A stretch of 64,000 nucleotides of DNA. Source: a virus. The position numbers and the translations under genes are program-made. The number at the start of each line of letters is the position of its first letter. Positions within the stretch are counted from its first letter, which is position 1. The stretch spans positions 1 through 64,000 of the IMG/VR virus record IMGVR_UViG_3300029324_000094; one strand, given 5' to 3'. The notes under the pieces are model-generated. The model was not told the origin of the DNA and did no database searches. It saw nothing but the letters and a program-made list of their open reading frames with translations. Positions 29,755 to 63,220 of the stretch are shown here, piece by piece.

Positions 29755-30360
29755 TTAAAATAAGTCAACCGGATCATCTGTATCCGCATCACCTAGAAGT
29801 GCTTTGGGATCTGCTCCGATGTCGGTAGCGATTTGTTCAATACTCTTTTTCGCTCCAGTAATCTGTTCATGCTCTACTGCTTTTGTCTCCGCCATTCCGT
29901 AAGCAGCTTTTGCAATGAATATTTTGTTCGCATCTGTCCCCTTGGAATTTCCCAAATTGTCGACCAAAAAACCTTTGCAAATATTCAACCATTTTTTGAC
30001 CGTGTCGGAGTGTTCAGCTGTCCGATATCTCCCATTAAGCCAAGTATTAAACGTTGTTCTGTCGATATCTACTAAAAAGCTAAATGCTTCCAACGTAGGA
30101 TTGACACTGTATTTACTGCATAGTCTTACATACACACTAAATATATTATCTAATGCTTTTATGTCTGCATTATCTGGCTTAGATATACGGTCTGAAATAT
30201 AAAATAACATATCCACAAAGTTGTCTTTTACGATCTTTTTACTTTCCTGATCCACATGCTCTAACTCTAATTCATTTTTGATATATTCATCAGCGTAATA
30301 ATTAATGTCATGTCTATATATCTCTATTCCAGCAGATGTAATATCTGTATTGTCTTTCAT
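29755..30360 (-). CDS. Hypothetical protein with internal HTH-like segment
   Basis: 201 aa; LEAFSFLVDIDRTTFNTWLNG is helix-turn-helix-like. A terminase small subunit role is possible but unsupported. Confidence 0.35.
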   Translation of the reverse strand: MKDNTDITSAGIEIYRHDINYYADEYIKNELELEHVDQESKKIVKDNFVDMLFYISDRISKPDNADIKALDNIFSVYVRLCSKYSVNPTLEAFSFLVDIDRTTFNTWLNGRYRTAEHSDTVKKWLNICKGFLVDNLGNSKGTDANKIFIAKAAYGMAETKAVEHEQITGAKKSIEQIATDIGADPKALLGDADTDDPVDLF

Positions 30361-30596
30361 TTTTGCTCACCTCCAAACTGTAAAAGTATAATAAAAAAGA
30401 CCGCTCCCCATTATGCAGTAACGTATATCTGCTATACGGGTCACGGTCTCAAAGGACTACCAAGAATGTATATATTATAATTCGGCTATATACTGCCCTA
30501 TTCACTTTTCATTGCTTATATATTAATTCAATATTCTGCAGGTGTCAACCCTAATAAAAAAAGTTGTGCATCAGCTTGCGAAATGCACAAGATATA

Positions 30597-30689
30597 ATAT
30601 ATATTCTATTCTTTTCTTCTCTATTCTTCTCTTATCTTCTCTGGGTTGCCAATTGGTATACCAACCGGTTACAAACCGGTATACCAAGC
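30597..30689. repeat. Ori-like repeat block, non-coding copy: pyrimidine tract plus palindromes CCAATTGG, GGTATACC and AACCGGTT with AACCGGT iterons 11 bp apart
   Basis: About 85% identical to 49659..49733 (inside the replisome-organiser gene) in the same orientation. Preceded by the 8-bp inverted repeat TTGTGCAT/ATGCACAA at 30564..30590. Confidence 0.6.
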
Positions 30690-31099
30690 ATATTTCACTC
30701 TCTGGAAGTGCAAAAAAGACAGCCGTTTTTTAGCTGCCTTTTCCATTGATTTATTTTATCCAATCTGCTATAATCAATTTAGCTCGAGAGCGGTGGCAAG
30801 TTCCGCCCTCTCTTGTGTGTCTGAGCTGTTGTTATACGGCTCTTTTTTTAATTGTCTTCGATGCCCTTTTGAGTGTCATCAATAAGGCGGTCAACCATCT
30901 TTTCAGCCTTATCATATTCTTTGTTTTTCAATGCTTCTTTCAAGTCTTTTAAATCCTGTAAAAGTCTTCTCAAGTAACTTTTAAATACGCTCATGTCTTC
31001 GTTCATGTCTCTCCTTTCTCCAGCTTGCCACTGGTAACTTGTAAGCTTGTTCCTTACAAGTATTATTATACCACTATTTTTAGTGCTGTCAATACTTTT

Positions 31100-32225: not shown

Positions 32226-32237
32226 GGAGGAAACAAA

Positions 32238-41168: not shown

Positions 41169-41564
41169 TTATTCTTTGTACTTCTGCAAAATCTCTGTAA
41201 TTGCTTTCATGTGATCTGCTGCTTCCATCAAATCTTCATCACCAATCGAATCAAGACCGTATTTCCTATTAAAATCCTCAAACGCATATCTTCCATCTCT
41301 AAATTGTTCAAACATGATAGCTAATTCATTTTCTTTTTCCGAATTTTCATCACACTCATAAAAAATTTCATTTTTGTCATGTTCTCCAAACTTATCAGTA
41401 AAGAATTTTGTCCGCTTTGGAGTGATTCTTGTGATTTTTGCCGGAGTAATTAACTGATGCCGGAATGATGAACGCCATCCACAACTCACGTCTCTCGCAA
41501 CACCAACAATATCCCCGACTTTCAATGTGTCTTTGTCTATCTCTTTTAATTTAATGTTCATCAA
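41169..41564 (-). CDS. Hypothetical protein
   Basis: ORF only. Confidence 0.35.
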   Translation of the reverse strand: MMNIKLKEIDKDTLKVGDIVGVARDVSCGWRSSFRHQLITPAKITRITPKRTKFFTDKFGEHDKNEIFYECDENSEKENELAIMFEQFRDGRYAFEDFNRKYGLDSIGDEDLMEAADHMKAITEILQKYKE

Positions 41565-44061: not shown

Positions 44062-44909
44062 TGTGTACCTCCGATAAAATCAGTAATGCTCATCTGCGGA
44101 TCTACTTCAACATTCAACATCTCATTTTTCGCTTTACTGTAAAAATTTCGATCAATTTCAAATCCGTAAGCACTTCTACCTAAATTCCTTGCAGCTCGCA
44201 ATGTGCTACCGGAACCGCAGCAAGGATCAATAACCACATCCCCCGGATCCGTAAATATCTGGATCAGTTGCTCCAACACCTTAACCGGCTTCTGTGCTGG
44301 ATGGATTTTAGGTATCTCTTTCCCGTCCTTTTCCCACTTAAACCAGTTAAACACCATATGTCCGGTACCTCGAATCGTCTTACCGTTTTCGTCAAATTTT
44401 GCACCGTTTCTAAATTTCGGCAACTTATCCCGGTATAATACCAGTGCATATTCCGTAGCACCCACAACACGCATGTTTGCTTTCAATACCTGTGGGCTAT
44501 AATTTTTCACGAATACAAGCGGTATGTAATTATTAAAACCATGTTTCTTAGCTGCATTGATCAATGTACTCATCTGCTCAAAACTGCAAAATACAATCAT
44601 GCACGGTGCATCAGAACTTCTTCCACGTCTACCGGCTTTCTTTGGCTCTTTCTTCAACATCTTCGAGCAGAAGTGGAAGTATTCATATAAATTGAAATTA
44701 AAGTCAGAATTGAATGCTGCTTTCTTTGCAAGTTTGCTTTCACCGTTTTTGTTATCCCCACCTACATACCACATTGGATTGCTTCCATAGAAGTTGCTTC
44801 CAACATTGTATGGCACATCTGCTATAATCAGTTGCGCTTTCGGTATTCCATAACGGCGAAAATTTTGCATCGAGTCTCTATAGATTTCACATTTCATACT
44901 CTTTCCCAT
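44058..44909 (-). CDS. N6-adenine or N4-cytosine DNA methyltransferase (beta class)
   Basis: Motif IV DVPY (IIADVPYN) precedes motif I (DPCCGSGST). Confidence 0.7.
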   Translation of the reverse strand: MGKSMKCEIYRDSMQNFRRYGIPKAQLIIADVPYNVGSNFYGSNPMWYVGGDNKNGESKLAKKAAFNSDFNFNLYEYFHFCSKMLKKEPKKAGRRGRSSDAPCMIVFCSFEQMSTLINAAKKHGFNNYIPLVFVKNYSPQVLKANMRVVGATEYALVLYRDKLPKFRNGAKFDENGKTIRGTGHMVFNWFKWEKDGKEIPKIHPAQKPVKVLEQLIQIFTDPGDVVIDPCCGSGSTLRAARNLGRSAYGFEIDRNFYSKAKNEMLNVEVDPQMSITDFIGGTQ

Positions 44910-47397: not shown

Positions 47398-49245
47398 CTA
47401 CTCAAACGGAATCTTTAGTTGATCCGCCTCGCTGAATCCGTCTTGTTTCGCCCATCCATACTCTACGGTTAAATCATCATTTTCACCGTAAATTCTCTTG
47501 GATCGCTCATCATACATGACGAGAAATCCTTTTGTATTGATTTTCCCAAACAATCTATTTTTCGGGACTGTGACTCTTCGATACGCATTGCTCAATTCGT
47601 TATCCTTGCTGTATCCAATCACCAGTGAAGCAAGATTTGATATGTCTCCTGCACCGCTGATTTCGTCTGTCTCATTCGTGGAAAAATTGTTCTTCCTCTT
47701 ATGAGCTACAAGCAAAATCAATACATCGAATTGCAATGCCATCCTCGCAAGTTTTTTCACAAAAAGACTTTGCTTTTCGTACTTATCAGTTCCTTTTTCT
47801 GCATCTAAATCAATCGCAGTCATTAAATTATCAATCAGAACAACATCTATTCCGTATTGTAGAACCGTTTGCTGTACGGTTTTGCACAGATCCTCTTTCT
47901 CATCTCCATCGACAATCGAACTGTCATAAATAAACGCTTTTCCTCGATACCAGGCATTAATCAACTCTTGATTCTGATTGGAAATCTTTCTTGAAACATC
48001 TCCAAATCTGTTTGTTGTTTCGATGATGTGCTGCGGACCGGCTATCTGAAAATCAAGCCACGCTTTAAACAAATAGTTTGGAAGCTCACCGGAATAAGCA
48101 AACACCTTATGTCCGGTCTCAATCGCCCTGCCTACAATCTGACTTGCAAGTGTTGACTTTCCCTCACCCGGCTTTCCAGTAATAAGAACTACACCGCCAA
48201 AAGGAATGCCACCGTATAACAGGCGATTGCACTCGTTGACCGTAGAGTCCAGCTTTTTCAAACTGTATATATCAACGTCCTGCACGTCAGACAGCTCTTT
48301 AACACGCCTCACAGGCTCAAATTCGGCATTTTCTACCGCTAGCCGAACATCTTCATGTCCATGCTTCATTAACAGCTCATTTGCGTCTTTACAGCCCTTA
48401 TAGTCCTCTTCCCGGACGTGTTTAATCTTGTTTGGAAATCTTCCCTTCAATTCCGGTAGCAATGTCATATGCCCTTTTTCAAAATCTCCAAACACTACAA
48501 TCTCTTGGAATTTGTTCACCCAGTCAAAACAATATGGAATCCAGGTAAATCCCTTTGCTCCGTTCGGAACGCTCACGGCATTCTTTATACCGGCTGTCGC
48601 TACGGAAAGGCTATCTAACTGCCCCTCCGTAATCACAAGCCTTGTGAAGTCCTTGCATTGCTTCATCCCAAACAATATCGGCTTACAATCGCGTTCACAC
48701 CATTCCTTGTTCTTATCTACTTCCTTGTTGAAGTCGGTTTTGCGGTATTTGACGAATTGCATCTTCCCATCTCCGTCATAGAACGGAAATACGAGTATGT
48801 TGTCATGATCCTTTTGAGTGGTAATTTCATACTCATGAGCAACCTCAGCAGATATTTTTCTGCTTTCCAAGTAAGCAACTGCCGGCTCTTTTGGAACAAT
48901 CGGCTTGTCCGGTGTCTTCAATTTCCTGTATTGCTTTTTCGGCTGGTAATATTCCATTACCTGCTGCCCCAAACTGAAATCAAAATCTCTTGCAAGACTG
49001 ATCATATTTCCGGTAACACCGCAGCTCTCTCTCAAACATTTAAACTGACCGGTTGACAGATTAATGGAAAAAGTGTTCTTGTCCTTTTTATCTCCACCGT
49101 GACAATACGGACAGAACCTTGTGAATTTCAATTCATCACCGTGTTGTCTTGCAGGCTCTCCAACATATCGGGCGAAATCAAAAGCATCTTCCGGCTTAAA
49201 TTTGTAATACATCAAACACCACTCTCCTGAATTTTTTTCAACCAA
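47398..49245 (-). CDS. Primase-helicase fusion (zinc-binding CHC2 primase, TOPRIM, DnaB-like helicase)
   Basis: CPYCHGGDKKDKNTFS...CLRESCG zinc finger, and helicase Walker A GKPGEGKST. Confidence 0.8.
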   Translation of the reverse strand: MVEKNSGEWCLMYYKFKPEDAFDFARYVGEPARQHGDELKFTRFCPYCHGGDKKDKNTFSINLSTGQFKCLRESCGVTGNMISLARDFDFSLGQQVMEYYQPKKQYRKLKTPDKPIVPKEPAVAYLESRKISAEVAHEYEITTQKDHDNILVFPFYDGDGKMQFVKYRKTDFNKEVDKNKEWCERDCKPILFGMKQCKDFTRLVITEGQLDSLSVATAGIKNAVSVPNGAKGFTWIPYCFDWVNKFQEIVVFGDFEKGHMTLLPELKGRFPNKIKHVREEDYKGCKDANELLMKHGHEDVRLAVENAEFEPVRRVKELSDVQDVDIYSLKKLDSTVNECNRLLYGGIPFGGVVLITGKPGEGKSTLASQIVGRAIETGHKVFAYSGELPNYLFKAWLDFQIAGPQHIIETTNRFGDVSRKISNQNQELINAWYRGKAFIYDSSIVDGDEKEDLCKTVQQTVLQYGIDVVLIDNLMTAIDLDAEKGTDKYEKQSLFVKKLARMALQFDVLILLVAHKRKNNFSTNETDEISGAGDISNLASLVIGYSKDNELSNAYRRVTVPKNRLFGKINTKGFLVMYDERSKRIYGENDDLTVEYGWAKQDGFSEADQLKIPFE

Positions 49246-50105
49246 TCAGGATGTTCGCTTAAGATTCCATAATCAAGTCCTTGTCCATCGTAAATAGCAC
49301 CCGCATCTTCTAACTGCTTGCGGAAACTCGATTCCAAACAGGAAAAACGGTCACAAGGTTCTCTTGGTTTTTCTAAGTCCTCCGATTCCTGCCCCCAGTT
49401 TTCATCCAAATAATCAACATACCCACTGTTGAAAAATGTGCTTCCGTGCATCCAATATTTACGATCTCTACCGCTGTCACTCATATCTTTCAAGAATCGA
49501 TCAACACAACGTCCAATCTGATCGTATCCGATTTTTTGAAGTGCTTTCTTCCTTGATGTTGATACCTGCCCTTTCCCTTTTTTGATTGGATATAACTTCC
49601 AAATAGATTCAAAGAAGTCATCAAGTGATTGTTCATCGTGCAGTTTTTCTGCACTATATATACTATTCTTTTCTTCTCTATTCTTCTCTATTCTATTCTG
49701 GGTATCCAACCGGTTACAAACTGGTATACCAAGCGGTAAAACGTCCGAAGATTCCACGGCATTTCTAAAGGAATATCTGCCATTCGGTTGCACTGTTAGA
49801 TGTGATTTTTCTTCCTGGTAAATCGTTTCCGTGTATCTGTCTTTCCTCAAATAATTATTAATTCTCCAATGCTTGATTACACAGATCCCGTCTGGAAACT
49901 GTATGACAAATGATTTCGCAACAAGCAGATCGTAATCATTCTGATTTGCACCGATGATCTTCATTACCTTTTTAGCGTTGTTCAAAAATCCATCATCATC
50001 AGCTCTCATAGATAGGTGGAAATACAATGCTTGTGTTGATAATGGCATTTCTAAGAAAGCATCTGAATCAACAATTTGTTTGGAGAACATTCTTTTTTCT
50101 GCCAA
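49212..50105 (-). CDS. Replisome organiser protein (Phage_rep_org_N-like)
   Basis: N-terminal LEMPLSTQALYFHLSMRADDDGF. The gene body contains the iteron/palindrome block. Confidence 0.7.
   Translation of the reverse strand: MAEKRMFSKQIVDSDAFLEMPLSTQALYFHLSMRADDDGFLNNAKKVMKIIGANQNDYDLLVAKSFVIQFPDGICVIKHWRINNYLRKDRYTETIYQEEKSHLTVQPNGRYSFRNAVESSDVLPLGIPVCNRLDTQNRIEKNREEKNSIYSAEKLHDEQSLDDFFESIWKLYPIKKGKGQVSTSRKKALQKIGYDQIGRCVDRFLKDMSDSGRDRKYWMHGSTFFNSGYVDYLDENWGQESEDLEKPREPCDRFSCLESSFRKQLEDAGAIYDGQGLDYGILSEHPDWLKKIQESGV
49659..49733. repeat. Ori-like iteron/palindrome block inside the replisome-organiser gene
   Basis: ccAACCGGTtacaAACtGGTatacc preceded by a pyrimidine tract; homologous to 30597..30689. 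Confidence 0.6.
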
Positions 50106-50759
50106 CTATTCCACCTCCCGTTGAAGCAGTTCAATAACTTTTGCTCCCTGTTCAGAGTTACTGCAAAATACGAACTCTACTCCGTACTTCTTCTGCATAG
50201 TTTTACACGCTTTCATGAGCGTTTCGCCTTTAGTTGCGGCAGGATACCTCTGTGTACGCCTATATATTGGATTTCCGCTCTTGTAATGACCAATCACATC
50301 ATCTGTACGCTTCATCACAAAAAGTCTCGGATTTTTCCATCTATAAAGCTCGTCAAGAGATCGGATTGTCCGATTGTAAATATCTTTTGTTCCCGGAATC
50401 AAGCCACCGGCATTCTGTACCAACACATACAGCTTAATTCCGTTGTTCTGAGCCAGTATGCATTCATCGCGGAATCTTGCGTGCTGTTTACCGCAGATAT
50501 CCCCCACAAGTTCCTGAATATCTTTCTTTGTGTCAACAGTCACATTGTACGTTCCGAGGAAATCCATTTTTTTTACCGGAATCCCACGTTCTTTCTTCCG
50601 GTTAATTACATCCGCAACCTTTTCGTTGGCAATAATGTAATCACCACATGGAAGAGGCATAGTCAGGACCTCAATTCCTTGCTTTTGCCAATAATTCTCT
50701 TTGGCAGTATGTTTACCTTTCTGCTGCCCTTTATCGCTAATTAGTATCAGTTTTCTCAC
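50106..50759 (-). CDS. Putative recombination or repair nuclease (restriction-endonuclease-like fold)
   Basis: PLPCGDYII...EK motif; sits between the replication and SSB genes. Confidence 0.3.
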   Translation of the reverse strand: MRKLILISDKGQQKGKHTAKENYWQKQGIEVLTMPLPCGDYIIANEKVADVINRKKERGIPVKKMDFLGTYNVTVDTKKDIQELVGDICGKQHARFRDECILAQNNGIKLYVLVQNAGGLIPGTKDIYNRTIRSLDELYRWKNPRLFVMKRTDDVIGHYKSGNPIYRRTQRYPAATKGETLMKACKTMQKKYGVEFVFCSNSEQGAKVIELLQREVE

Positions 50760-51132
50760 CTGCCTTAAGTTCTTTTCTTCGTAAATATCTCTGATGTTCC
50801 CGCTCCTTTACCGGTATTTTCTTCGGACACCACTGCGGACAGCACGTCACTTTCTGCAAAATCAACCGCATTTCTGGGACGCACAGTCTCTTAAAACCTG
50901 TACCCTTATCTAATTTGACAAGGGTACATTCATTGCATTCGTCACAATGAGGAAGTGATTCTGCCACCTTGCTTCTATAATCCCTCTGCTTCTGCCTATA
51001 AACTTCAGGATTCGCATTCCAGCGTCTTCTCTTAAGAAGAGCATTTACGTTATCAACAATGCAATCCTCATATTGGCATTCATAGCAATTTGGATACGAA
51101 CAGTCCTTTTTTCCAGCCATTCCGCTTCTCAT
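50737..51132 (-). CDS. Cys-rich hypothetical protein
   Basis: 131 aa with multiple Cys pairs (CSYPNCYECQYEDC, CDECNEC, CCPQWC). Confidence 0.35.
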   Translation of the reverse strand: MRSGMAGKKDCSYPNCYECQYEDCIVDNVNALLKRRRWNANPEVYRQKQRDYRSKVAESLPHCDECNECTLVKLDKGTGFKRLCVPEMRLILQKVTCCPQWCPKKIPVKEREHQRYLRRKELKAGEKTDTN

Positions 51133-51286
51133 TCTTTCTCCTTATATATTCTTCACGGCTTATCCCATCCGTCATATTAACGTCCACCCTCTCACCGGCT
51201 AAAGTGCCATTGTATTTGCAATCAGGATATGGACACTGAAAGCAATCGGGATGGCAACAATACTCCGGTCTTACTCCGCTCGACAT
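51080..51286 (-). CDS. Cys-rich small protein
   Basis: CCHPDCFQCPYPDC. Confidence 0.3.
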   Translation of the reverse strand: MSSGVRPEYCCHPDCFQCPYPDCKYNGTLAGERVDVNMTDGISREEYIRRKNEKRNGWKKGLFVSKLL

Positions 51287-51296
51287 TTATTTCTCC

Positions 51297-51722
51297 TTAA
51301 TTAAACGGTAATTCTTCATCCATTCCATCCGGGATACTCATAAACCCGTCTGATGCCGGAATTGATCCACTTCCTGCTGACTGCTGATTCTGCTGATTGG
51401 CTGCTTTGCTTTCTGCAAACTCCTGTTCTTCCACAACTACATCTGTTGTATACACCTTGTTTCCGTCCTTGTTTGTGTAGCTTCCGGTCTGAATACGCCC
51501 TGAGACAGCAACTTGCATTCCTTTGCGGAAATACTTCTCTGTAAATTCAGCCGACCGTCCAAAGACAACACAAGGAATAAAATCCGCTGTCGGCTCTCCA
51601 TCTTTCTTAAATTTTCTGTTTACAGCAAGTGTATATCTTGCAACCGCTGTAGCATTGTCTCCCTGTGAATATCTCACCTGCGGATCTGCTGTCAATCTCC
51701 CCATTAAAACTGTTTTATTCAT
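51297..51722 (-). CDS. ssb: Single-stranded DNA-binding protein
   Basis: OB-fold N-terminus (VLMGRLTADPQVRY), Gln-rich linker and acidic tail DEELPF. Confidence 0.85.
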   Translation of the reverse strand: MNKTVLMGRLTADPQVRYSQGDNATAVARYTLAVNRKFKKDGEPTADFIPCVVFGRSAEFTEKYFRKGMQVAVSGRIQTGSYTNKDGNKVYTTDVVVEEQEFAESKAANQQNQQSAGSGSIPASDGFMSIPDGMDEELPFN

Positions 51723-51909
51723 CTATGTAGTCCTCCTTATTTAAGTAAATAAATAATCATGTTTACGATACTTAAGATTATTGCGAGCAAGAATCCTAAA
51801 AACGGAATTAAAAATCCTTTATTCTCAGTGTCTTTATACATGTAAAAATCAAAAGTCGCTCCCATAGCGTAAAAAATTATTAATAATATTTTGTAAATCA
51901 TTGCTCCTC

Positions 51910-52653
51910 CTAGAATGGCGTAAGCCTAAACTCTTTCTCTGCACGCTTTTCGGCAATCCAAACATTCACATCTGAGTCAACCACACTTCGTATCTCGTCT
52001 TTGAACCGCTGCGGATTGCCGTTTCCTGCACTTAAGTGTATCAAGCCTATACTTCTTAGGCTTTTACTGTTTATGCTCTGTATGAGCCTTTTACACGTTT
52101 GTAATTCCATATGCCCAGTAAGCACATGGGAGAATTTAGCCCCATCTTCTTCTCGGCTGATATAGTCCTCTGAGTAGTTGCACTCAATCAGTCCATAGTT
52201 GATTTCCATTTTTGAGAAATCGTACGGACAATACTCAGCATCCGTAATGAAAAGGATTCTTCCGTCAGGTGAATCAATCAACCATCCGTCACACTCCGTC
52301 TCTCCATGCGGTACACGGAACGGTATCACCGAAAATGAGCCTATCTGATAACGCCTCATACGCTGTAACCCTACAGTCTTTTCGCCCATTACTGTTTCAA
52401 TGTCCGTCTCCACTTCATCGGATGTGTAAATCTTGATACCATACTGCATATACTGCTTGATGTACCCAACATGGTCTTTATGAACGTGACTTACCATGCA
52501 TCCGCTCACCTTGGAAGTCTGATAGTCAATCGTTTTCAGCATATCTTTTGCTGGCACACCGCATTCCAGGAGAAGAACATCTTCCCCTGAAATCAGAGCA
52601 TAACCATTTCCTTTTGAACCGGAGTTAATTGTTTTTACTACCACTAAAAACAC
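51910..52653 (-). CDS. Metallo-beta-lactamase-fold hydrolase
   Basis: HVHKDHVGY motif; next to recT. Confidence 0.6.
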   Translation of the reverse strand: MFLVVVKTINSGSKGNGYALISGEDVLLLECGVPAKDMLKTIDYQTSKVSGCMVSHVHKDHVGYIKQYMQYGIKIYTSDEVETDIETVMGEKTVGLQRMRRYQIGSFSVIPFRVPHGETECDGWLIDSPDGRILFITDAEYCPYDFSKMEINYGLIECNYSEDYISREEDGAKFSHVLTGHMELQTCKRLIQSINSKSLRSIGLIHLSAGNGNPQRFKDEIRSVVDSDVNVWIAEKRAEKEFRLTPF

Positions 52654-52673
52654 CTTTCTTTTCTGATGTCATA

Positions 52674-53129
52674 TCAACCGCCCATATTTGGACAGATGCA
52701 ATCCCATTGATAATTTTCGAAGTGAAGTTCTTCATCTTTCAGAATTCTTCCATCAACAATTTCAATGTCCTGATTGAATTCCATCCCCATTTCAAAACCA
52801 TGAATTTTCATATCAACATGATATTTTTCACATGTTTTCAGGAGTTCATCTGCTGAAATTCCCCATGCAAACTTGGAATCAAAGACTTCAACAAAGGTTT
52901 CATCATCTTCATATTCAGAAAGATAAACTTCTACACCTTTGACAAATCCCCTTCTTGTGTTTTCGATCCAACATGTTTCATTTGAATTAATATCGCCATA
53001 TTCATCCAGCTGCAGCTTTGCTTTTTCTTCACCAAGGAATCCAACTGGACGTAAGCCTTCAAGAATAAATCTCGTCATATTTTCTTTTGTTCCACGAACT
53101 TTCAAACTTCCTTCACACCAATTTGGCAT
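52674..53129 (-). CDS. Hypothetical protein
   Basis: 151 aa ORF. Confidence 0.35.
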   Translation of the reverse strand: MPNWCEGSLKVRGTKENMTRFILEGLRPVGFLGEEKAKLQLDEYGDINSNETCWIENTRRGFVKGVEVYLSEYEDDETFVEVFDSKFAWGISADELLKTCEKYHVDMKIHGFEMGMEFNQDIEIVDGRILKDEELHFENYQWDCICPNMGG

Positions 53130-53144
53130 TTTATATGTACCTCT

Positions 53145-53534
53145 CTACTCACCGAAAAATTCCTTCCTAACATCGACCACTTCATACCTTGCGGCTTTCA
53201 TCCTGAATGGCTTCTTATCGCCTTTACAAATAAATTGCCGACATATTTCTGGTCTGACTGGATAGATTCTGCATTTCTCTTTCAGCTTTGAATCGTCCAT
53301 GAACGGGCAAGCCAGGTCGTAAACCTCTTTAGCTACTGGAAACAAGTGTCTGTAAGGCTTGATATCGTGAGCTTTGATGTACTGCTTAATCGTAATGATT
53401 TCTTTACTGGATAAAGGCAGGCATCTCGAACAGCACGCACCACACTGGCTACATTTTCCATCAACCGTCATGTCATAAGTGCCATTTTTCATACCCTCAA
53501 TGGCATCACTTAACCACTTTGTTTGAGCTGTCAT
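53145..53534 (-). CDS. YkgJ-like Cys-cluster (zinc- or iron-chelating) protein
   Basis: CSQCGACCSRC cluster plus a later CPF...C. Confidence 0.45.
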   Translation of the reverse strand: MTAQTKWLSDAIEGMKNGTYDMTVDGKCSQCGACCSRCLPLSSKEIITIKQYIKAHDIKPYRHLFPVAKEVYDLACPFMDDSKLKEKCRIYPVRPEICRQFICKGDKKPFRMKAARYEVVDVRKEFFGE

Positions 53535-53878
53535 TCTTTTACAATCTCCACTTCATATCCAAGCTCTTTGCAGATTTCAGAAGCGGTCATTTTTCGTACT
53601 TTTTCACGATTCCAAATACAGTTACGTTCATCTGAAAGCATGATGCTAAATTTTCTTAATGCTGGCTTGAAAACTTTCATAATATCAAGGTCAGAATCAT
53701 CCGGCCATGTCATATCACTTTTATGTGGATATCCTCCATCAAGCGACATATAGCCGTTCATTCCAATACCGTATAATTTTCCATCCTGATTGACAATCAA
53801 GTATTTTGTACCATCTCTTGTTTCAACAACCATTCCTGTTTTTAAATCTTTTAATTCCATATCTTTACTCCTTTGCAA
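53531..53878 (-). CDS. Hypothetical protein
   Basis: 115 aa ORF. Confidence 0.35.
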   Translation of the reverse strand: MQRSKDMELKDLKTGMVVETRDGTKYLIVNQDGKLYGIGMNGYMSLDGGYPHKSDMTWPDDSDLDIMKVFKPALRKFSIMLSDERNCIWNREKVRKMTASEICKELGYEVEIVKE

Positions 53879-54893
53879 AATCCGGCGTTTCTACCTCAAC
53901 AGCTTCAGATTCAGCCACTACAGATTCATCTTCCACGGCAAATTCCTGTGAATTTTCGCTTTCCCTAACCTCTTCCTGTGCCGTCTTATATGTTTCATCC
54001 AACTGCAATAAGGAACTGGATGCCATGCTGTTAAGATTCTTCGGAAATTTCTTGATAGCATTGTTACGCATCTTTCGTACAATCATAGCTTCCGGTGTAT
54101 CAAGCCACGCTGCACTGATATATGGCTTTGCAGCTTCACACCGCAAGATATCTTCCAAAGTTTCGCACTCACGGATGGCTGATAAAACTTCCTCTTTCCT
54201 TGCCCTGATCTGTTCTTTCTGTTTTGGAGTAGCTTTATAGCGATTCTCACAAATTCCAAACGTTTCATTCAGCAGATTATTCCTGATATGAGCGATCAGG
54301 TTCGTTCTCACCGGCTCTCTTTCTGCAATCAGATAATCAATCGTTCCATCTTTCAGCTTTACCGGATAAACAACCCTTACCGTCTTGTCTGACAGTCCTT
54401 TAGGAGTCCACTCCGCAGGCTCAATCTCAATTCCACGTCTGCGAGGATATGTAAAATCATCTCCTTCTTTTACGAGCCAAACCGGGTATACGGTGTCAAT
54501 GTTATTTCCGAACTGCCGGAGCAAACTGTCATTTCCGTCTCCCTCAATCCCCATTTCAACAACCTTGCACCACTGACCGCCAATCTGCTTGTTTCTGAGC
54601 TGGAAATACACTTCTCTCGGCATTGCACTGGCGTTTAGCTTAAGACTCGCACACTGAGCCACGACCTCTCTCAGATTGGAAGTGTTGAGATTCCCCATAT
54701 CTGCTTTATCATCATTTTGCACTAACTGGAAGATAGCTCCCATAGCGTTCATTGCACACTGTTTGGAATATTCATCATACTTAACACCATTCTGCTCAAA
54801 ATCCCTTGAGACAAGACCAGTTATGGTATTTGTCCACTGACTCAAACCAGTTGTAAATTCCTGCTTCTGAGCAACTTCATTCTTCTCTGCCAT
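53865..54893 (-). CDS. recT: RecT-family single-strand annealing protein
   Basis: 342 aa; its position in the recombination module next to the MBL-fold hydrolase and SbcC/Rad50-like ATPase fits a RecT-family annealing protein; no motif was checked. Confidence 0.65.
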   Translation of the reverse strand: MAEKNEVAQKQEFTTGLSQWTNTITGLVSRDFEQNGVKYDEYSKQCAMNAMGAIFQLVQNDDKADMGNLNTSNLREVVAQCASLKLNASAMPREVYFQLRNKQIGGQWCKVVEMGIEGDGNDSLLRQFGNNIDTVYPVWLVKEGDDFTYPRRRGIEIEPAEWTPKGLSDKTVRVVYPVKLKDGTIDYLIAEREPVRTNLIAHIRNNLLNETFGICENRYKATPKQKEQIRARKEEVLSAIRECETLEDILRCEAAKPYISAAWLDTPEAMIVRKMRNNAIKKFPKNLNSMASSSLLQLDETYKTAQEEVRESENSQEFAVEDESVVAESEAVEVETPDFAKE

Positions 54894-55120
54894 TACTCTT
54901 CCTCCACTTTCCCATCAATCTTTTTCAGCTTCTCCCGGAAAGGAAGAATTTCCGTCTCTGGAACATCAACCGCAGTTACTACAGCTTTCGCAGTTCCAAT
55001 AGAAACTACTTCTCCCGGCTTCACGATCACATCTGAACCGAACGTGTATTCACGCCCATGCTGAACGCCATCTTTCATATATCTGGCTTTGATATATAAC
55101 ATTAGTCCTACTCCTTTCAT
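54893..55120 (-). CDS. Hypothetical small protein
   Basis: ORF only. Confidence 0.3.
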   Translation of the reverse strand: MKGVGLMLYIKARYMKDGVQHGREYTFGSDVIVKPGEVVSIGTAKAVVTAVDVPETEILPFREKLKKIDGKVEEE

Positions 55121-55410
55121 TCAAACACGTGTCTCAATAACGCCCATATCGCATCAGAAGCATCCATTCTCTTTTCTTTTTCCATAAAAACATCCTTGAG
55201 AACTTCATTTATCTCGCTTGCGATTTCATCATCAGGCTTTCCGCTTGCAAGAATGTTAAACACTTTCTCTCCTGCATCCTCTCCGAACTTATCTGCAAAC
55301 ATTTTTCTTACTCCACGACAAATCCCCTTAAATTCATTCATAGTGTCGTTCAGGAAACCGCTGATTTCTACTGATCCTGTTCCTTTCCCGTTTCTTTCTG
55401 CCTTAATCAT
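55117..55410 (-). CDS. Hypothetical protein
   Basis: 97 aa ORF. Confidence 0.3.
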   Translation of the reverse strand: MIKAERNGKGTGSVEISGFLNDTMNEFKGICRGVRKMFADKFGEDAGEKVFNILASGKPDDEIASEINEVLKDVFMEKEKRMDASDAIWALLRHVFE

Positions 55411-57427
55411 ATTTAACCTCGCTCTCTACTTTTAATTCCTTATCATCGGTTACTGCCAAACAAATCATCTGAGAATCCATTTCCGGCACATTGAAGTCGT
55501 TGATGCTTTCCGCATTATCCACGAAAATAGGGCAACTGACACCGTACAGACTGGATAATGATTGAATAATATCCAATCCTGCAACAATCCGATGCCCGTT
55601 ATTCAAGCTTGAAAGCGGAACGCCATTTACAGTACATTCACAAGTTTCTTTCAGCCCCCCGTTGATCTGATTGTCGAACAGCTTGAATGAAACCAACTTA
55701 AACATTCCGTTGATCTTTTCAGAAATCATTTTCATTTTCGCCCGAATAAAATCCTCCACAAGGTCGATCATCTGTTCCTGTTCTGCAATTTTCTGTCCGA
55801 CTTCTTTCTGCTCTTCCTCCAATTCAGCAATACGCTCTTTCACTTTGGAATTGTCTGCTGCCGCAATCTTTCCAGTAATTTCAGCAATTTCATTTTTTAA
55901 AATATCTCTCCGAGCTTTCAACTCCATCGAAGAAGTATCTTTGCTCATTTCTTCAATCTCTTTTTCAAGTGCCGAGATTTTCTCTGTAGTTGCCTTATAC
56001 TCTGCATTTTCTGAAACATCAGCAACCTTTGGCATTCCGTCTACAGCCTTTTTAACAATCTCGTATTCACTCTGTGCATCTGCCAACTTGGTAGTCAGCT
56101 CATCTTTTTCTTTGATAAGAGATTCTTCCAAGGTTTTAAATTTGTCTCTCGATTTAGCAGCTGACCTTCCATCAGCTTCAATCTGCGAAATCCTTTTAGC
56201 ACGGTTTTCTTCAAACTCTGCCTTATCTTTTTCGTACTTGCTTTCATATGCAGTCTTGCGAGCTTCGTAATCAGCAATACGTTTCTGCTTTACCTCTTCC
56301 GGCAAGTCCTGTCCGCAAGTAGGACAGATAAACGAGCCGTCCGTAAGCGGTTCCAACGGAGTAAGAGCCGGATATGCCTTTGCTTTTTTAGACTTCCATT
56401 CAACCAAAAGCCGATTTTTTTCACGCTCATGATCTTCATACTTTACATGAGCATCCCTGATTTCGCTTTCCTTATTCAATACATCACGCTTGAGATCATT
56501 CAATGTATCCCGCGTTCTTGATAAGTCATTTCGGATATCAGTTGATTCCAAAAGCAACTTCTGATTCTCCGCATTCTGAATTTCTGATAGATGGAATTTG
56601 AGAGTCATGATTTCTTCACGTTTGGAATTAATTTCTTCCAACTTGCTGTTACCGCCTGAGATTTCATCTTCTACTTTCTGCAGAGCTACTTCCTTGGCGG
56701 TTTTCTCAGTCTCCAACGCTCCCACATCCGCAATGACAAGCTGTTTAGACGCTTCATCAATTCTTGCTGGAATCTCAACCATGTCCTTATTAAGTGCATT
56801 TTTTGTCTTCGTGTATTTTTTCAAAATATCGTCTGTGCTTGCAATTCTCAGTTCCGGGATGAGTTTTGCGTACTTCTCGCCAAACGTCTGAGCGATCTCC
56901 GCATCCGGGAATGTTCCAACGAATTTCATCAGGATCTCTCTCTGCTTTTTCCACGGTAATGCATTGAACGCTGCAGGATCGGTAATCAGAGTGAAGATCT
57001 CTTCATCAATGATTCCAGCAATAAATTCCTTGAACTCTTTTTGAGATTTCGGATACCCGTTGATCTCAAACTCATTCACATTCCCCTGAAATTCTGTAAT
57101 GCCTGTTCCACGTTTTTTTACCCATTTCTGTTTCTGAGTCTTTTTCAGATCATATTCATCTCCGCCAACGGAAATCTTCGCTTCAACGGAAATCTCGATA
57201 TTATCAATCATCTTTCCGTCCTTGTCCAACGGTCTGACATCGAAATCTGAATTTCCAAGAGAATCTCTTCCAAACAGTAGCCATTTAAATGAATCAAAGA
57301 TCGTTGTCTTTCCGGTGGCATTTGCACCGAATATTCTTGTCTTTTCACCAAATTCAATATTGCGATCCTTGCATCCTTTAAAGTTCTGAATATGTATGGA
57401 CAGCAACTTAACCTTTTTAATTTCCAC
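55403..57427 (-). CDS. SbcC/Rad50-like SMC-family ATPase with zinc hook
   Basis: Walker A GANATGKTT, long coiled coil, hook CPTCGQ, and C-terminal signature/D-loop (LSSLNNGHRIVAGLDI..VDNAES). Confidence 0.7.
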   Translation of the reverse strand: MEIKKVKLLSIHIQNFKGCKDRNIEFGEKTRIFGANATGKTTIFDSFKWLLFGRDSLGNSDFDVRPLDKDGKMIDNIEISVEAKISVGGDEYDLKKTQKQKWVKKRGTGITEFQGNVNEFEINGYPKSQKEFKEFIAGIIDEEIFTLITDPAAFNALPWKKQREILMKFVGTFPDAEIAQTFGEKYAKLIPELRIASTDDILKKYTKTKNALNKDMVEIPARIDEASKQLVIADVGALETEKTAKEVALQKVEDEISGGNSKLEEINSKREEIMTLKFHLSEIQNAENQKLLLESTDIRNDLSRTRDTLNDLKRDVLNKESEIRDAHVKYEDHEREKNRLLVEWKSKKAKAYPALTPLEPLTDGSFICPTCGQDLPEEVKQKRIADYEARKTAYESKYEKDKAEFEENRAKRISQIEADGRSAAKSRDKFKTLEESLIKEKDELTTKLADAQSEYEIVKKAVDGMPKVADVSENAEYKATTEKISALEKEIEEMSKDTSSMELKARRDILKNEIAEITGKIAAADNSKVKERIAELEEEQKEVGQKIAEQEQMIDLVEDFIRAKMKMISEKINGMFKLVSFKLFDNQINGGLKETCECTVNGVPLSSLNNGHRIVAGLDIIQSLSSLYGVSCPIFVDNAESINDFNVPEMDSQMICLAVTDDKELKVESEVKYD

Positions 57428-59979: not shown

Positions 59980-60168
59980 CTACTCTTCCAGGAAATACTC
60001 AATAGTTACTCCGAAGTAGTCAGCAATTTTCTTTAATTTATCTACTTTCGGCTTACTTTTACCGGACTTCCAATCAGAAAAAACTGTTGTTGACAAGCCA
60101 GTGTCTTTTGCAACTCTATATGTAGAAATTCCTCTTGCTTTTACGAGTCGCTCAAATTTTTCGTACAT
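59980..60168 (-). CDS. Cro-like XRE-family HTH regulator
   Basis: 62 aa with an HTH (STYRVAKDTGLSTTVFSDWKSG), divergent from the cI-like gene. Confidence 0.7.
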   Translation of the reverse strand: MYEKFERLVKARGISTYRVAKDTGLSTTVFSDWKSGKSKPKVDKLKKIADYFGVTIEYFLEE

Positions 60169-60759
60169 TTCAATCCTCCTTTCTTGAAAATAGCTAGGAT
60201 ATCCTGTATAATAAGTTTAGCCTTAGTTAAGGTAGAAAGTAGGTGTTGCCAGTGAAAGCAATATTGAATCTGCCCTGTTCCTACATAATCATGATGCGTA
60301 AGGCTGAGTTTTGAGCGGAACAAAAACCGCTAAAGTGAGTGGTACACCACAGAAGCTTTTTGATTACTTTAGGCATGATTCCATAACTTCTGTAAAATGT
60401 GTAGAGAAACACGTAATAATTCGCTAGTCAGAAACAAGGTATAAGCACAGAGAAGTGCAATCCTCTTGGAGAATAATCGCGGCTTTGGGTTATGGTTCAT
60501 TGCAGTGTACGTAGGTAAACAAATTTTGAGGAGAGACTTTGTGTGAGCGTATATGCGCTAAAGTAATCGCACGAAGTCTTTTTCTTTTTATCCTAACTTT
60601 TTATTGAAATTAGTTAGAAAATCCTATATAATGTAATCAGGCAAAATTATTTATTCAAAACCTAGGATTTTCTAACTTGTATCCTCATTATACTTAGGAT
60701 ACTCTAGTTTGTCAACGACTTTTTTAGGATTTTCTAGTTTTTATTGAGGAGTGTAACTA
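60169..60759. promoter_or_regulatory. Lysis-lysogeny switch intergenic region with operator repeats
   Basis: TAGGATTTTCTA occurs three times (60617..60628 inverted, 60663..60674, 60725..60736). Palindromes CTAGGATATCCTG (60193..60205) and CTTAGGATACTCTAG (60690..60704). Several TATAAT-like boxes. Confidence 0.5.
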
Positions 60760-61134
60760 ATGTATGAAATATTTGAGAGATTATTAAAAGAAAAAGGGTT
60801 AAAAGCAGCGGATGTTGTAAGAGGGACTGGGATAAAGTCCCCCGTGTTTTCCGAATGGAAAAAAGGAAAAAGCAACCCAAATACTGAAAAAATGCTTAAA
60901 ATAGCAAATTTTCTTAATGTAACTGTTGAATACCTTATGACAGGGGAAGACCCAAAAGCCGACTCTCCCTCTCAAGGCTACTACATTGATGAAGAGACAG
61001 CTCGTACAGCACAGGAAATCTACAGCAATGATAAGATTCTCTTTGACGTATACAAAACCGCAGATAAAGACAGATTGATAGCGTACGCCAAAAAGTTATC
61101 TGAATTGCGAAAATTAGAGGAAGGTGAGGAATGA
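60760..61134 (+). CDS. cI-like XRE-family repressor
   Basis: N-terminal HTH (KAADVVRGTGIKSPVFSEWKKG) and a C-terminal extension. Confidence 0.7.
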   Translation: MYEIFERLLKEKGLKAADVVRGTGIKSPVFSEWKKGKSNPNTEKMLKIANFLNVTVEYLMTGEDPKADSPSQGYYIDEETARTAQEIYSNDKILFDVYKTADKDRLIAYAKKLSELRKLEEGEE

Positions 61135-61431
61135 TTGTATTACAAAGGATATTATATAAATGTAGTAATACTCGATGAATCCTATGGTGTTCCGGGATGC
61201 GTAAGACATAATTCTGATGATTCTTACACGATATTCATAGATGCATCATTAAACTACGAAAAACAGCATGAAGTGTTTTTGCATGAAATAAGACATATTT
61301 TAGGTGACGATTTCAGTGAATCCGATGTGCAAATGATAGAAATGAAGAACCATATGCATGATTACTGCATAGAAGTTTCAGCAGAGATTTTCCCATACAC
61401 GCAAAGAATAAAGATTGTAACTGCTAATTAA
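61135..61431 (+). CDS. ImmA/IrrE-family metallopeptidase (anti-repressor protease)
   Basis: HEVFLHEIRHIL (HExxH); directly follows the repressor gene. Confidence 0.6.
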   Translation: MYYKGYYINVVILDESYGVPGCVRHNSDDSYTIFIDASLNYEKQHEVFLHEIRHILGDDFSESDVQMIEMKNHMHDYCIEVSAEIFPYTQRIKIVTAN

Positions 61432-61478
61432 CAATACTTAAAATATAAGATTTATTATAAACAGAGGAGAAAATAATT

Positions 61479-62219: not shown

Positions 62220-62459
62220 TATAGATATAGAAAAAACCCCCAGCACGACTACCACAGGTCAAGCCTGCTGGTGATTACACCCTCGCGTTATCTGGCGGCG
62301 TTCTTTCTAAGATTATTATAATTCAGCCAGTTATAAATGTCAACAAACATTTGTTCTGGAATACTTAAATTGGTATAACCGCCTAGTGCGATTATATATA
62401 AAACGTGTGGTGCGTTTAAGAACAGGTTCTTATCAAAAGAGAAAGAGAGGAAAAAAGAA

Positions 62460-62813: not shown

Positions 62814-62831
62814 TTTGATAGTTGCATTATA

Positions 62832-63025: not shown

Positions 63026-63220
63026 AACAAAAACCGCCCCTTCGCCAAAAGGAGCGGAATGTTGAAGAAACACACGCAAATATGTTTCTTCCAGTACTCC
63101 GAAGAGATACCATTAATTGCCAATGAATATTGTATCATCTTCGGACAGCCAATGCAATCAGAACAGCCGTTCTGTGTTGGTTGTATTTTTTATACCCATT
63201 TTTAAGGAGGATGATTTTTT

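What the first reader, a model, noticed from the sequence alone, without database searches (positions are those of the whole stretch)
49659..49733. Iteron/palindrome block inside the replisome-organiser gene, with a diverged non-coding duplicate 19 kb away
Within the Phage_rep_org_N gene there is a pyrimidine tract followed by AACCGGT iterons 11 bp apart and the palindromes GGTATACC and AACCGGTT. This is a lambda-O-like ori-within-initiator layout. A copy about 85% identical in the same orientation sits in a 740-bp non-coding region (30597..30689). That copy has gained an extra CCAATTGG/GGTATACC palindrome and is flanked by an 8-bp inverted repeat (30564..30590) and terminator-like hairpins (30790..30852). 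It could be a second origin, a regulatory decoy for the initiator, or a recombination scar.
Basis: seen in the sequence. Interest (0 to 1): 0.6.

Follow-up and report, generated by a model that had tools for sequence, protein, structure and literature searches.

The report
Phage replication origin with spare copy
A gut-bacterial phage carries the binding-site array of its replication initiator twice, once inside the initiator gene and once in a gap in front of the packaging genes. This layout is already known from Bacillus phage SPP1, so it is a real but fairly ordinary feature.

Summary
Window 49655-49734, inside the 297-aa initiator gene 49212-50105(-), and 30598-30689 (intergenic) are direct repeats. 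The matches are 60 nt at 85% and 29 nt at 97%, separated by a 12-nt indel that equals one extra iteron. The iteron part stays significant with low-complexity masking (E=9e-9). GGTATACC occurs only 3 times in 64 kb, always inside these two blocks.

Each block has two parts: a pyrimidine tract of 10-nt repeats, then four 11-12-bp iterons (about GGTAWMCAA). More than 100 relatives of the initiator carry the same block at the junction of the N- and C-domains.

Nine related viral contigs carry both copies, always in direct orientation. The intergenic copy lies 13-20 kb downstream of the gene copy in all nine, if one contig is read as circular. Against one group of relatives it is a roughly 80-nt island of conservation in otherwise unrelated flanks. 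In three lineages it lies just upstream of the terminase genes.

The same repeat search on SPP1 recovers oriL (in gene 38) and oriR (non-coding): 46 nt, 85%, direct. The best reading is an SPP1-like pair of initiator-binding arrays: a primary origin in the gene and an accessory oriR-like site. The initiator is not detectably homologous to G38P, and the 'Phage_rep_org_N' label fails. Binding and firing are untested.

The parts
49212..50105 (-). Replication initiator / replisome-organiser-type gene (297 aa, TTG start). It has an N-domain with a winged-helix-like predicted fold, a disordered linker encoded by the origin block, and a helical C-domain.
   Evidence: PHROG 5708/8489 'DnaD-like helicase loader' at E=3e-70 and 3e-67; phrog_270 'replication initiation protein' on the C-domain. 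No Pfam or NCBIfam hit. A protein 92% identical over the N-half is named 'replisome organizer [Coprococcus comes]' by NCBI. AF2 model: residues 8-72 H-H-E-H-H-E-E with pLDDT 70-82; residues 110-153 below 50.
49655..49746 (.). In-gene origin-type block (copy A). Pyrimidine tract 49663-49699 with CTATTCT / TCTCTATTCT repeats at about 10-nt period. Iterons GGTATCCAACC (49701), GGTTACAAACT (49712), GGTATACCAAGC (49723) and the degenerate GGTAAAACGTCC (49735). It encodes residues 124-151 of the protein.
   Evidence: The same tract-plus-iteron layout is at the same place in relatives.
30598..30689 (.). Intergenic origin-type block (copy B), same orientation as A. Pyrimidine tract 30602-30641 (three 10-nt-phased repeats). 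Iterons GGTTGCCAATT (30644), GGTATACCAACC (30655), GGTTACAAACC (30667) and GGTATACCAAGC (30678).
   Evidence: Conserved island against the B2 relatives (0.80-0.94 identity over 30601-30680, flanks 0.1-0.5).
30564..30609 (.). Inverted repeat TTGTGCAT-N11-ATGCACAA (30564-30590) followed by an AT-rich palindromic stretch ATATAATATATAT (30592-30609). The 40-nt windows here are 75-78% A+T. Candidate unwinding element and/or operator next to copy B.
   Evidence: The inverted repeat is kept in B1 relatives, with a loop change.
30710..30738 (-). Terminator-like hairpin for minus-strand (early/middle) transcription, just upstream of copy B: GGCAGC-N9-GCTGTC then TTTTTT on the minus strand. Relatives have GACAGCCC-N4-GGGCT there.
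   Evidence: Read directly from the sequence. The scan did not flag it because the loop is 9 nt. The motif CTGGAAGnGCAAAAAAGACAGCC is conserved in B1 and B2 relatives.
30520..30548 (-). Sigma-70-like promoter candidate (TTGACA-17-TAATAT) between copy B and the first late gene.
   Evidence: 10 of 12 matches. A consensus match only.
29755..30360 (-). First gene downstream of copy B. Weakly similar to small terminase subunits. It marks the start of the late block (TerL 21369-24125, portal 19187-20779, tape measure 8596-13476).
   Evidence: phrog_606 terminase small subunit at E=1.4e-5; TerL and portal.
47398..49245 (-). Primase-helicase (DnaB-like C-terminal ATPase) immediately downstream of the initiator gene. 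It co-varies with the initiator's C-domain.
   Evidence: phrog_239 at E=2e-85; Pfam DnaB_C/AAA_25. In B2 contigs the initiator C-domain and the helicase are replaced together.
50106..57427 (-). Recombination/replication-restart module upstream of the initiator: ERCC4-type nuclease (50106-50759), SSB (51297-51722), metallo-beta-lactamase-fold protein (51910-52653), RecT-like annealase (53865-54893) and SbcC-like AAA_23 ATPase (55403-57427).
   Evidence: It parallels the SPP1 set of exonuclease, RecT-like G35P, SSB G36P and resolvase G44P (PMC3485210, PMC6316719).

Best explanation
The two segments are two arrays of binding sites for the phage's own replication initiator. They are organised like oriL and oriR of Bacillus phage SPP1.

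Copy A lies in the linker-coding part of the initiator gene and is the primary origin. The N-domain of the initiator binds the 11-12-bp GGTAWMCAA iterons. The adjacent A+T-rich polypyrimidine/polypurine tract of 10-nt repeats is the region that opens. The C-domain brings in the primase-helicase encoded next door.

Copy B sits between the terminator of the early/middle genes and the promoter of the late (packaging) genes, about 19 kb downstream. It is an accessory site bound by the same protein. By analogy with SPP1 oriR, its most likely role is a tightly bound nucleoprotein complex, or a late second origin, that stalls or re-starts forks. That would help switch replication from circle-to-circle to recombination-dependent concatemer synthesis, using the RecT/SSB/nuclease module encoded just upstream of the initiator.

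Shown here: the repeat, its architecture, its conservation, its orientation and its position in relatives. Inferred: binding, unwinding, firing and fork stalling.
For: 1. The duplicate is real and includes the non-repetitive iteron part.
2. The tract-plus-iteron block is a family trait at the N/C-domain junction of the initiator. Most of the 148 places in the loci held that match the signature lie in relatives of this gene.
3. Modularity fits 'N-domain reads the iterons, C-domain reads the helicase'. B2 contigs keep residues 1-144 at 90% identity plus the iterons. They swap the C-domain together with the helicase (31% identity). P0087 has a different N-domain joined to the same C-domain.
4. 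The intergenic copy keeps the purine/pyrimidine tract although nothing is encoded there, so the tract is a DNA element and not just a peptide linker.
5. Nine related contigs hold both copies, all in direct orientation. The intergenic copy is 13-20 kb downstream of the gene copy in transcription direction in all nine, provided the distant contig 3300028797_000221 (N-domain 54% identity) is read as circular; read linearly its copies are 35 kb apart. That contig's two copies match each other better (score 74) than its gene copy matches other lineages' intergenic copies (30-42).
6. Against B2 relatives the copy is an island of 0.80-0.94 identity in unrelated flanks.
7. Positive control: the same tool on SPP1 finds oriR 4889-4934 vs oriL 35960-36005 (46 nt, 85%, direct). 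oriL sits at residues ~128-143 of G38P, the same relative position as here.
8. Literature: gp38 binds both sites with similar affinity, oriL drives theta replication, and oriR is proposed as a fork barrier that triggers the recombination-dependent sigma mode (PMC6316719, PMC3485210, PMC5737612).
9. The window encodes the matching recombination module.
Against: - No experiment shows binding or initiation at either site.
- The initiator shows no detectable sequence similarity to G38P (BLASTP E=0.58), so the parallel is architectural, not homology-based.
- The AF2 model is weak (mean pLDDT 60) and Foldseek gave no significant match, only a list enriched in winged-helix domains.
- The second copy is not universal. 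Cultured Clostridium phage phiCp-A has the in-gene block but no second copy.
- Within B2 contigs the intergenic copy resembles the window-type gene copy more than its own gene copy, so the two copies do not simply co-evolve.
- Even in SPP1 the role of oriR as a barrier is a proposal, not a demonstrated fact.
- Copy B's position next to a promoter and the terminase genes also fits regulatory or packaging-linked roles.
Confidence: 0.6

Rival explanations
1. Copy B is a negative-control iteron cluster, like incA of P1 or the extra iteron sets of F and RK2. It titrates the initiator or pairs ('handcuffs') with the in-gene origin through initiator bridges. This would limit theta initiation, for instance keeping the prophage or early infection from over-initiating. 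It would not act as an origin or a fork barrier.
For: It is a second iteron array without the coding context, in the same orientation and carrying four units like the origin. It is maintained in relatives but dispensable in some, such as phiCp-A, as expected of an accessory control locus. Iteron control loci are established for P1 and iteron plasmids (own knowledge; review PMC4980987 listed, not read).
Against: Control clusters in plasmids lie next to the origin and lack an unwinding element. Here the copy is 13-20 kb away and keeps the whole pyrimidine tract and an A+T-rich flank (75-78% A+T), so it looks like a complete origin. No evidence that this phage is maintained as a plasmid; relatives carry a CI-like repressor and sit in contigs up to 400 kb.
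Confidence: 0.15
2. Copy B is mainly a switch for late gene expression or packaging. Initiator bound between the early terminator and the late promoter, just upstream of the terminase genes, would couple late transcription or packaging initiation to the level of replication protein.
For: Copy B lies between a terminator-like hairpin and a promoter-like site, about 240 bp upstream of a terS-like gene. In two other lineages the intergenic copy is also directly upstream of the terminase genes: L105 has tRNA-Gln, TerL, portal; L180 has TerS, TerL. An inverted repeat suited to a dimeric regulator sits next to it.
Against: In SPP1 the equivalent site is not at the late promoter or at pac. In L138 the intergenic block lies upstream of replication genes. 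In L164 its orientation relative to the flanking genes is reversed. The early/late junction is also simply the largest intergenic gap available. The promoter is only a consensus match.
Confidence: 0.12
3. Copy B is a neutral leftover: a recombination scar or gene-conversion product from the mosaic exchange that often breaks at the origin block, with no function of its own.
For: The origin block is a recombination junction. Copy B sits exactly at a mosaic boundary: sequence right of 30720 is unrelated to B1 relatives and sequence left of 30600 is unrelated to B2 relatives. In the window the pyrimidine tract of B matches A over a 35-nt stretch with one mismatch (97%), whereas the intergenic copies of the B1 relatives have a differently arranged tract. 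This hints at recent gene conversion.
Against: Similarity stops at the edges of the cis-element and does not extend into coding sequence. The copy persists at 80-94% identity in lineages whose flanks are unrelated. It keeps the same orientation in 9 of 9 contigs that carry both copies. A distant lineage carries its own lineage-specific version. SPP1 has the same arrangement with a different protein.
Confidence: 0.05

Closest known systems
Bacillus subtilis phage SPP1 oriL / oriR with origin-binding protein G38P
   Same: The origin repeats lie inside the initiator gene at the end of its N-terminal third (SPP1 residues ~128-143; here 124-151). A second copy about 85% identical lies in direct orientation in a non-coding gap of the late region bracketed by transcription signals (PMC6316719). 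A helicase gene lies downstream, and RecT-like annealase, SSB and nuclease genes are nearby.
   Different: No detectable sequence similarity between the initiators. G38P has a Phg_2220_C C-domain; the window protein has no Pfam hit. The repeats differ: AGACACAG-type boxes in SPP1 against GGTATACC-type iterons plus a pyrimidine tract here. SPP1 oriR lies after the portal and gp7 genes, whereas here the copy lies in front of the terminase-side genes. SPP1 is virulent; this phage looks temperate. SPP1 uses a separate loader (G39P) and helicase; here there is a fused primase-helicase.
Phage lambda O protein / ori-lambda
   Same: Iterons and an A+T-rich region lie inside the initiator gene at the junction between an N-terminal origin-binding domain and a C-terminal domain that recruits the helicase system. 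Hybrid phages recombine at this junction (own knowledge). The same modular swaps are seen here.
   Different: Lambda has one origin only. The proteins are unrelated by Pfam (no Phage_rep_O hit). The iteron sequence and length differ. The hosts here are Clostridia.
Iteron control loci of P1 (incA/incC) and iteron plasmids
   Same: Two clusters of the same initiator-binding repeats exist on one replicon, one of which is dispensable for initiation.
   Different: Those clusters flank the initiator gene within about 1-2 kb and the control cluster lacks an unwinding element. Here the clusters are about 19 kb apart and both look like full origins. Not tested here.
In-gene origins of lactococcal and streptococcal temperate phages (e.g. 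TP901-1 and Tuc2009 rep genes)
   Same: These are annotated 'replisome organizer / DnaD-like' proteins. Repeats essential for replication inside the rep gene are recalled from own knowledge. tblastn finds 30-45% identical relatives of the window protein in 130 GenBank phages, mostly Streptococcus and Lactococcus.
   Different: No second non-coding copy has been reported for them to my knowledge. The only GenBank relative whose whole genome I checked (Clostridium phage phiCp-A) has none.

Membership tests
SPP1-type dual origin (oriL in the initiator gene + oriR in non-coding DNA) | Repeat array inside the coding sequence of the origin-binding protein | tested here: met
   Block at 49655-49746 inside gene 49212-50105(-). 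The same position is used in more than 100 relatives.
SPP1-type dual origin (oriL in the initiator gene + oriR in non-coding DNA) | Second, similar repeat array in a distant non-coding segment, in direct orientation | tested here: met
   30598-30689, 85-97% identical, direct. Nine related contigs have both copies, all direct. The SPP1 control gives 46 nt at 85%, direct.
SPP1-type dual origin (oriL in the initiator gene + oriR in non-coding DNA) | A+T-rich unwinding element next to the repeats | tested here: inconclusive
   40-nt windows of 70-75% A+T next to A and 75-78% next to B, against a window average of about 60%. No unwinding calculation or assay was done.
SPP1-type dual origin (oriL in the initiator gene + oriR in non-coding DNA) | The initiator binds both arrays specifically | not testable with these tools
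   Needs EMSA, footprinting or ChIP.
SPP1-type dual origin (oriL in the initiator gene + oriR in non-coding DNA) | Initiator homologous to G38P | tested here: not met
   BLASTP E=0.58. G38P hits Phg_2220_C/TIGR02220; the window protein hits nothing in Pfam or NCBIfam. A profile-profile comparison was not done.
   No Pfam hit at E<=10 for the whole protein or for residues 1-127. Relative P0087 has PF09681 in place of this N-domain, joined to the same C-domain.
DnaD-like / replisome-organiser initiators of Firmicutes phages (PHROG 5708/8489) | Significant match to the family profiles | tested here: met
   phrog_5708 E=2.9e-70 and phrog_8489 E=3.2e-67. NCBI names a close relative 'replisome organizer'.
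Lambda O / ori-lambda type | Homology to lambda O (Pfam Phage_rep_O) | tested here: not met
   No such hit.
Lambda O / ori-lambda type | Origin at the junction of an exchangeable origin-binding N-domain and a helicase-specific C-domain | tested here: met
   Swap of the C-domain plus helicase, with the breakpoint at residue ~144, in B2 contigs. N-domain swap in P0087. Linker disorder at 110-153.
Iteron-plasmid / P1 incA-type control locus | Extra iteron cluster that lowers initiation by titration or handcuffing | not testable with these tools
   Needs copy-number and looping assays.

The most novel reading that the evidence does not exclude
The intergenic copy is not merely a spare origin. It would be a conserved replication-to-packaging coupling element of Clostridia phages. 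In this reading, initiator bound at a full origin-like array placed directly in front of the terminase operon (seen in three lineages with different terminases) creates the fork stall or break, or a late initiation, that feeds concatemer synthesis and late expression at the point where packaging starts. The strand-asymmetric 10-nt-repeat pyrimidine tract would be an initiator-bound single-strand element, as described for the plasmid initiators' unwinding-element repeats.
Probability: 0.15. Interest if true: 0.6.

Novelty: new member of a known kind. Interest (0 to 1): 0.35.

Why it matters
If the two arrays work as in SPP1, the oriL/oriR design is not a peculiarity of one Bacillus phage. It would be a recurring solution in temperate phages of gut Clostridia (Coprococcus/Blautia-type hosts) that use an unrelated or only remotely related initiator.

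That offers natural variants for testing the still unproven idea that a second initiator-bound site triggers the theta-to-sigma switch. The variants include different iterons, spacings of 13-20 kb, relatives with and without the second copy, and a position next to the terminase genes.

The intergenic copy also shows that the odd 'NRIEKNREEKN' peptide stretch found in many replisome-organiser proteins is a by-product of a DNA element. This is useful for annotating origins in metagenomic phage genomes.

Tried and rejected
- **Chance or low-complexity match:** rejected.
- **Direct homology to SPP1 G38P:** none by BLASTP.
- **Structure route:** the AF2 model from a 20-sequence alignment is only moderately confident. 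Foldseek against PDB gave nothing at E<=0.001, so the winged-helix reading stays weak.
- **Near-identical GenBank phages:** only two unannotated fecal 'Bacteriophage sp.' records match, and only a few kb elsewhere. The intergenic element as a query found only one in-gene block, in Streptococcus phage Javan291.
- **Host genomes:** the exact 21-mer is absent from GTDB representative genomes. Protein-based loci reach at most 57% identity over most of the protein (locally up to 69%), and no second copy lies within 10 kb of them.
- **Cultured relative phiCp-A:** no second copy.
- **Lineage-specific scan for the L180/L144 intergenic block:** it did not find a gene copy on the same contigs, so that lineage stays open.
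- **Rfam on 30300-31500:** no match.
- **GC skew:** follows gene orientation only and says nothing about the origin.
- **Pseudogene fragment of a duplicated rep gene:** rejected, because the similarity ends at the edges of the element.

Full report
**1. The observation**

The two segments exist as described. A whole-window repeat search gives 30598-30657 vs 49655-49714 (60 nt, 85%) and 30661-30689 vs 49706-49734 (29 nt, 97%). Both are direct, about 19.05 kb apart, and they are the two longest and best repeat families in the 64 kb. The alignment shows one 12-nt insertion in the intergenic copy.

- AACCGGT/AACTGGT 11 bp apart
- GGTATACC, AACCGGTT and CCAATTGG

The flanking features are also confirmed:
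- the inverted repeat at 30564-30590
- the hairpins at 30792-30852

The similarity is not confined to the pyrimidine run. With DUST masking on, the iteron part still matches at E=9e-9 within the window. GGTATACC occurs three times in the window against 0.22 expected, only inside these blocks.

**2. Anatomy**

Each block has two parts on the + strand.
- A pyrimidine tract of 37-40 nt built from roughly 10-nt repeats: TCTCTATTCT-like, three copies in register.
- Four 11-12-bp units of the type GGT(A/T)NNCAANC. In A these are GGTATCCAACC, GGTTACAAACT, GGTATACCAAGC and GGTAAAACGTCC. In B they are GGTTGCCAATT, GGTATACCAACC, GGTTACAAACC and GGTATACCAAGC.

The 'extra palindrome' of copy B is therefore one more iteron at the tract-proximal end. 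Copy A has a degenerate extra unit at the distal end.

*Copy A.* It lies in gene 49212-50105(-) and encodes residues 124-151 (...LGIPVCNRLDTQNRIEKNREEKNSIY...). An AlphaFold model is moderately confident for residues 8-72, with an H-H-E-H-H-E-E, winged-helix-like order. It is below pLDDT 50 for residues 110-153, which is the linker encoded by the block. Foldseek against PDB gives nothing significant. Its top list is rich in winged-helix DNA-binding domains, including plasmid initiators 5kbj and 4pta.

*Copy B.* Reading in the direction of transcription (minus strand), the order is:
1. a terminator-like hairpin at 30738-30710 (read from the sequence; conserved in relatives)
2. the iterons
3. 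the purine/pyrimidine tract
4. an A+T-rich palindromic stretch and an 8-bp inverted repeat
5. a promoter-like site at 30548-30520
6. a gene weakly similar to small terminase subunits, 30360-29755

The late genes then follow: TerL, portal and tape measure.

**3. What the gene is**

- Pfam and NCBIfam give no hit, even at E<=10, so 'Phage_rep_org_N' is not verified.
- PHROGs places it firmly in 'DnaD-like helicase loader / replication initiation protein' families (3e-70).
- NCBI calls a protein with a 92% identical N-half 'replisome organizer [Coprococcus comes]'.
- The gene lies between an ERCC4-type nuclease and a primase-helicase. Further upstream are SSB, an MBL-fold protein, a RecT-like annealase and an SbcC-like ATPase.
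- Relatives sit behind a CI-like repressor and on contigs of up to 400 kb, so the phage is temperate. The named hosts are Lachnospiraceae and other Clostridia.

**4. Relatives: the in-gene block**

In about 50 fetched relatives of the protein (38-100% identity), the same place in the gene holds a pyrimidine tract followed by GGTATACC-like 11-bp iterons. The details are lineage-specific.

Searching all loci held at that point for the signature gave 148 places. Most of them lie inside relatives of this gene at residues ~120-150.

The block is also a recombination junction.
- 'B2' contigs share the upstream nuclease (82%) and initiator residues 1-144 (90%). They have an unrelated C-domain and a different helicase (31%), and similarity resumes after the helicase.
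- P0087 joins a true PF09681 N-domain to the window-type C-domain.

This is the lambda-O-type logic: the N-domain goes with the iterons and the C-domain goes with the helicase.

**5. Relatives: the intergenic copy**

An exact 21-mer scan found 15 loci, and two contigs held both copies. Combining this with the protein-anchored loci and the signature scan gives nine contigs with both copies:

| Contig | Spacing between copies |
|---|---|
| 3300045988_096850 | 18.8 kb |
| 3300045988_111312 | 15.3 kb |
| 3300045988_067752 | 19.0 kb |
| 3300045988_082866 | 20.3 kb |
| 3300029359_000344 | 16.0 kb |
| 3300045988_093118 | 13.4 kb |
| 3300045988_043096 | 16.4 kb |
| 3300045988_063245 | 17.8 kb |
| 3300028797_000221 (distant, N-domain 54%) | 35 kb, or 14 kb if circular |

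In all nine the two copies have the same orientation. The intergenic copy lies downstream of the gene copy in transcription direction, taking the last contig as circular.

- Against B2 relatives, the intergenic copy is an island of 0.80-0.94 identity (30601-30680) in flanks that align at noise level.
- Against B1 relatives, the left flank is conserved and everything right of 30720 is unrelated.
- The distant contig's two copies match each other (score 74) far better than its gene copy matches other lineages' intergenic copies (30-42).

Further intergenic copies occur in other lineages: L133, L138, L144/L180 and L164, which has two tandem blocks. The neighbours of the copy vary by lineage:
- in L105 the next genes are tRNA-Gln, TerL and portal
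- in L180 they are TerS and TerL
- in L138 they are a different DnaD-like loader and a DnaB helicase

The second copy is not universal. Cultured Clostridium phage phiCp-A (N-domain 56%) has the in-gene block only.

**6. The precedent**

The same repeat search on SPP1 (NC_004166) returns 4889-4934 (non-coding, between genes 7 and 8) vs 35960-36005 (inside gene 38, residues ~128-143). The match is 46 nt, 85%, direct. These are oriR and oriL.

The literature on SPP1 says:
- Both origins consist of direct repeats plus an A+T-rich unwinding element.
- gp38 binds both with nanomolar affinity.
- oriL alone drives theta replication in vitro.
- gp38 bound to oriR is proposed to stall the fork and trigger the switch to recombination-dependent concatemer synthesis, using the exonuclease, RecT-like G35P, SSB and the G44P resolvase.
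- oriR lies in a late-region segment 'bracketed between transcriptional signals'.

Sources: PMC6316719, PMC3485210 and PMC5737612. The window reproduces this design point by point. However, its initiator shows no detectable similarity to G38P.

**7. Mechanism and rivals**

Most likely, both blocks are arrays for the same initiator. The in-gene block is near-universal in the family and is the primary origin. The intergenic block is present in a subset of lineages and is an accessory oriR-like site.

The intergenic copy keeps the pyrimidine tract without any coding need. So the tract is a cis element: a candidate unwinding region, possibly bound on one strand as reported for plasmid initiators (PMC4081077, listed, abstract only).

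Sequence cannot separate three roles for copy B: fork barrier or late origin, negative control by titration or handcuffing (P1 incA-like), or coupling to late transcription and packaging. Its repeated position in front of the terminase genes keeps the third option alive. A neutral scar is unlikely given the conserved island, the fixed orientation and the lineage-specific versions.

**8. Verdict**

This is a real, non-random and evolutionarily maintained feature. It is a new member of the SPP1-type 'origin in the initiator gene plus second non-coding origin copy' kind, in an uncultivated temperate phage of gut Clostridia with a different initiator family. Interest is moderate to low. It generalises a known design and offers natural variants to test the oriR model, but it would not surprise a phage-replication specialist.

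Noticed in passing
window 30746-30852 (+ strand): A promoter-like site (TTGATT-17-TGcTATAAT) is followed by a roughly 70-nt stretch that folds into two hairpins and ends in a T-run (MFE -26.4 kcal/mol, z = -4.4). This is a candidate small RNA, convergent with the 52-aa ORF 30848-31006(-). There is no Rfam match, and the region is unrelated in the B1/B2 relatives.
   Followed up: partly
window 30564-30590: Inverted repeat TTGTGCAT-N11-ATGCACAA between copy B and the late promoter-like site. B1 relatives keep it with a change in the loop. It could be an operator for a dimeric regulator, for example the HTH_26 protein 31100-31381(-).
   Followed up: no
window 25879-27101 (- strand): A cluster of seven tRNA genes (Asn, Trp, Gln, Ile, Arg, Met, Ser) inside the late region. 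A distant relative (L105) has a tRNA-Gln directly next to its intergenic origin copy.
   Followed up: no
window 41551-44061 (-): An 836-aa C5 cytosine DNA methyltransferase interrupted by an intein (Hint_2 / Hom_end_hint / Intein_splicing hits). An N6/N4 methyltransferase lies next to it at 44058-44909. The iterons contain CCGG and other palindromes, so methylation might affect them (speculation).
   Followed up: no
window 21369-24125 (-): The large terminase ORF is unusually long (918 aa). Its N-terminal ~390 residues also hit P-loop 'DnaC-like loader / primase' PHROGs, which suggests a fusion or an inserted domain.
   Followed up: no
window 49212-50105 and loci L025/L027/L028/L031; protein P0087: The origin block is a domain-shuffling junction. 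Some relatives keep the N-domain and swap the C-domain plus helicase. P0087 swaps in a PF09681 N-domain instead.
   Followed up: yes
L164 8950-9045 (IMGVR_UViG_2623620477_000001): Two tandem intergenic tract-plus-iteron blocks about 65 bp apart. Their orientation is opposite to that of the flanking genes, unlike the window and its nine relatives.
   Followed up: partly
L138 2591-2630 (IMGVR_UViG_3300037150_000196): An intergenic tract-plus-iteron block lies directly upstream of a different DnaD-like loader gene (phrog_1701) and a DnaB-like helicase. This may be a lineage in which the origin is non-coding and the initiator lacks this N-domain.
   Followed up: partly
window 51910-52653 (-): A metallo-beta-lactamase-fold protein with a weak, below-threshold hit to the anti-Pycsar Apyc1 family. 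It sits inside the recombination module, so it could be a nuclease or an anti-defence enzyme.
   Followed up: no
window 31500-34000 and 60000-64000: Two short stretches where genes and GC skew switch to the + strand. These may be morons or the lysogeny module; a DUF3800 gene lies at 61479-62219. Neither stretch was analysed.
   Followed up: no
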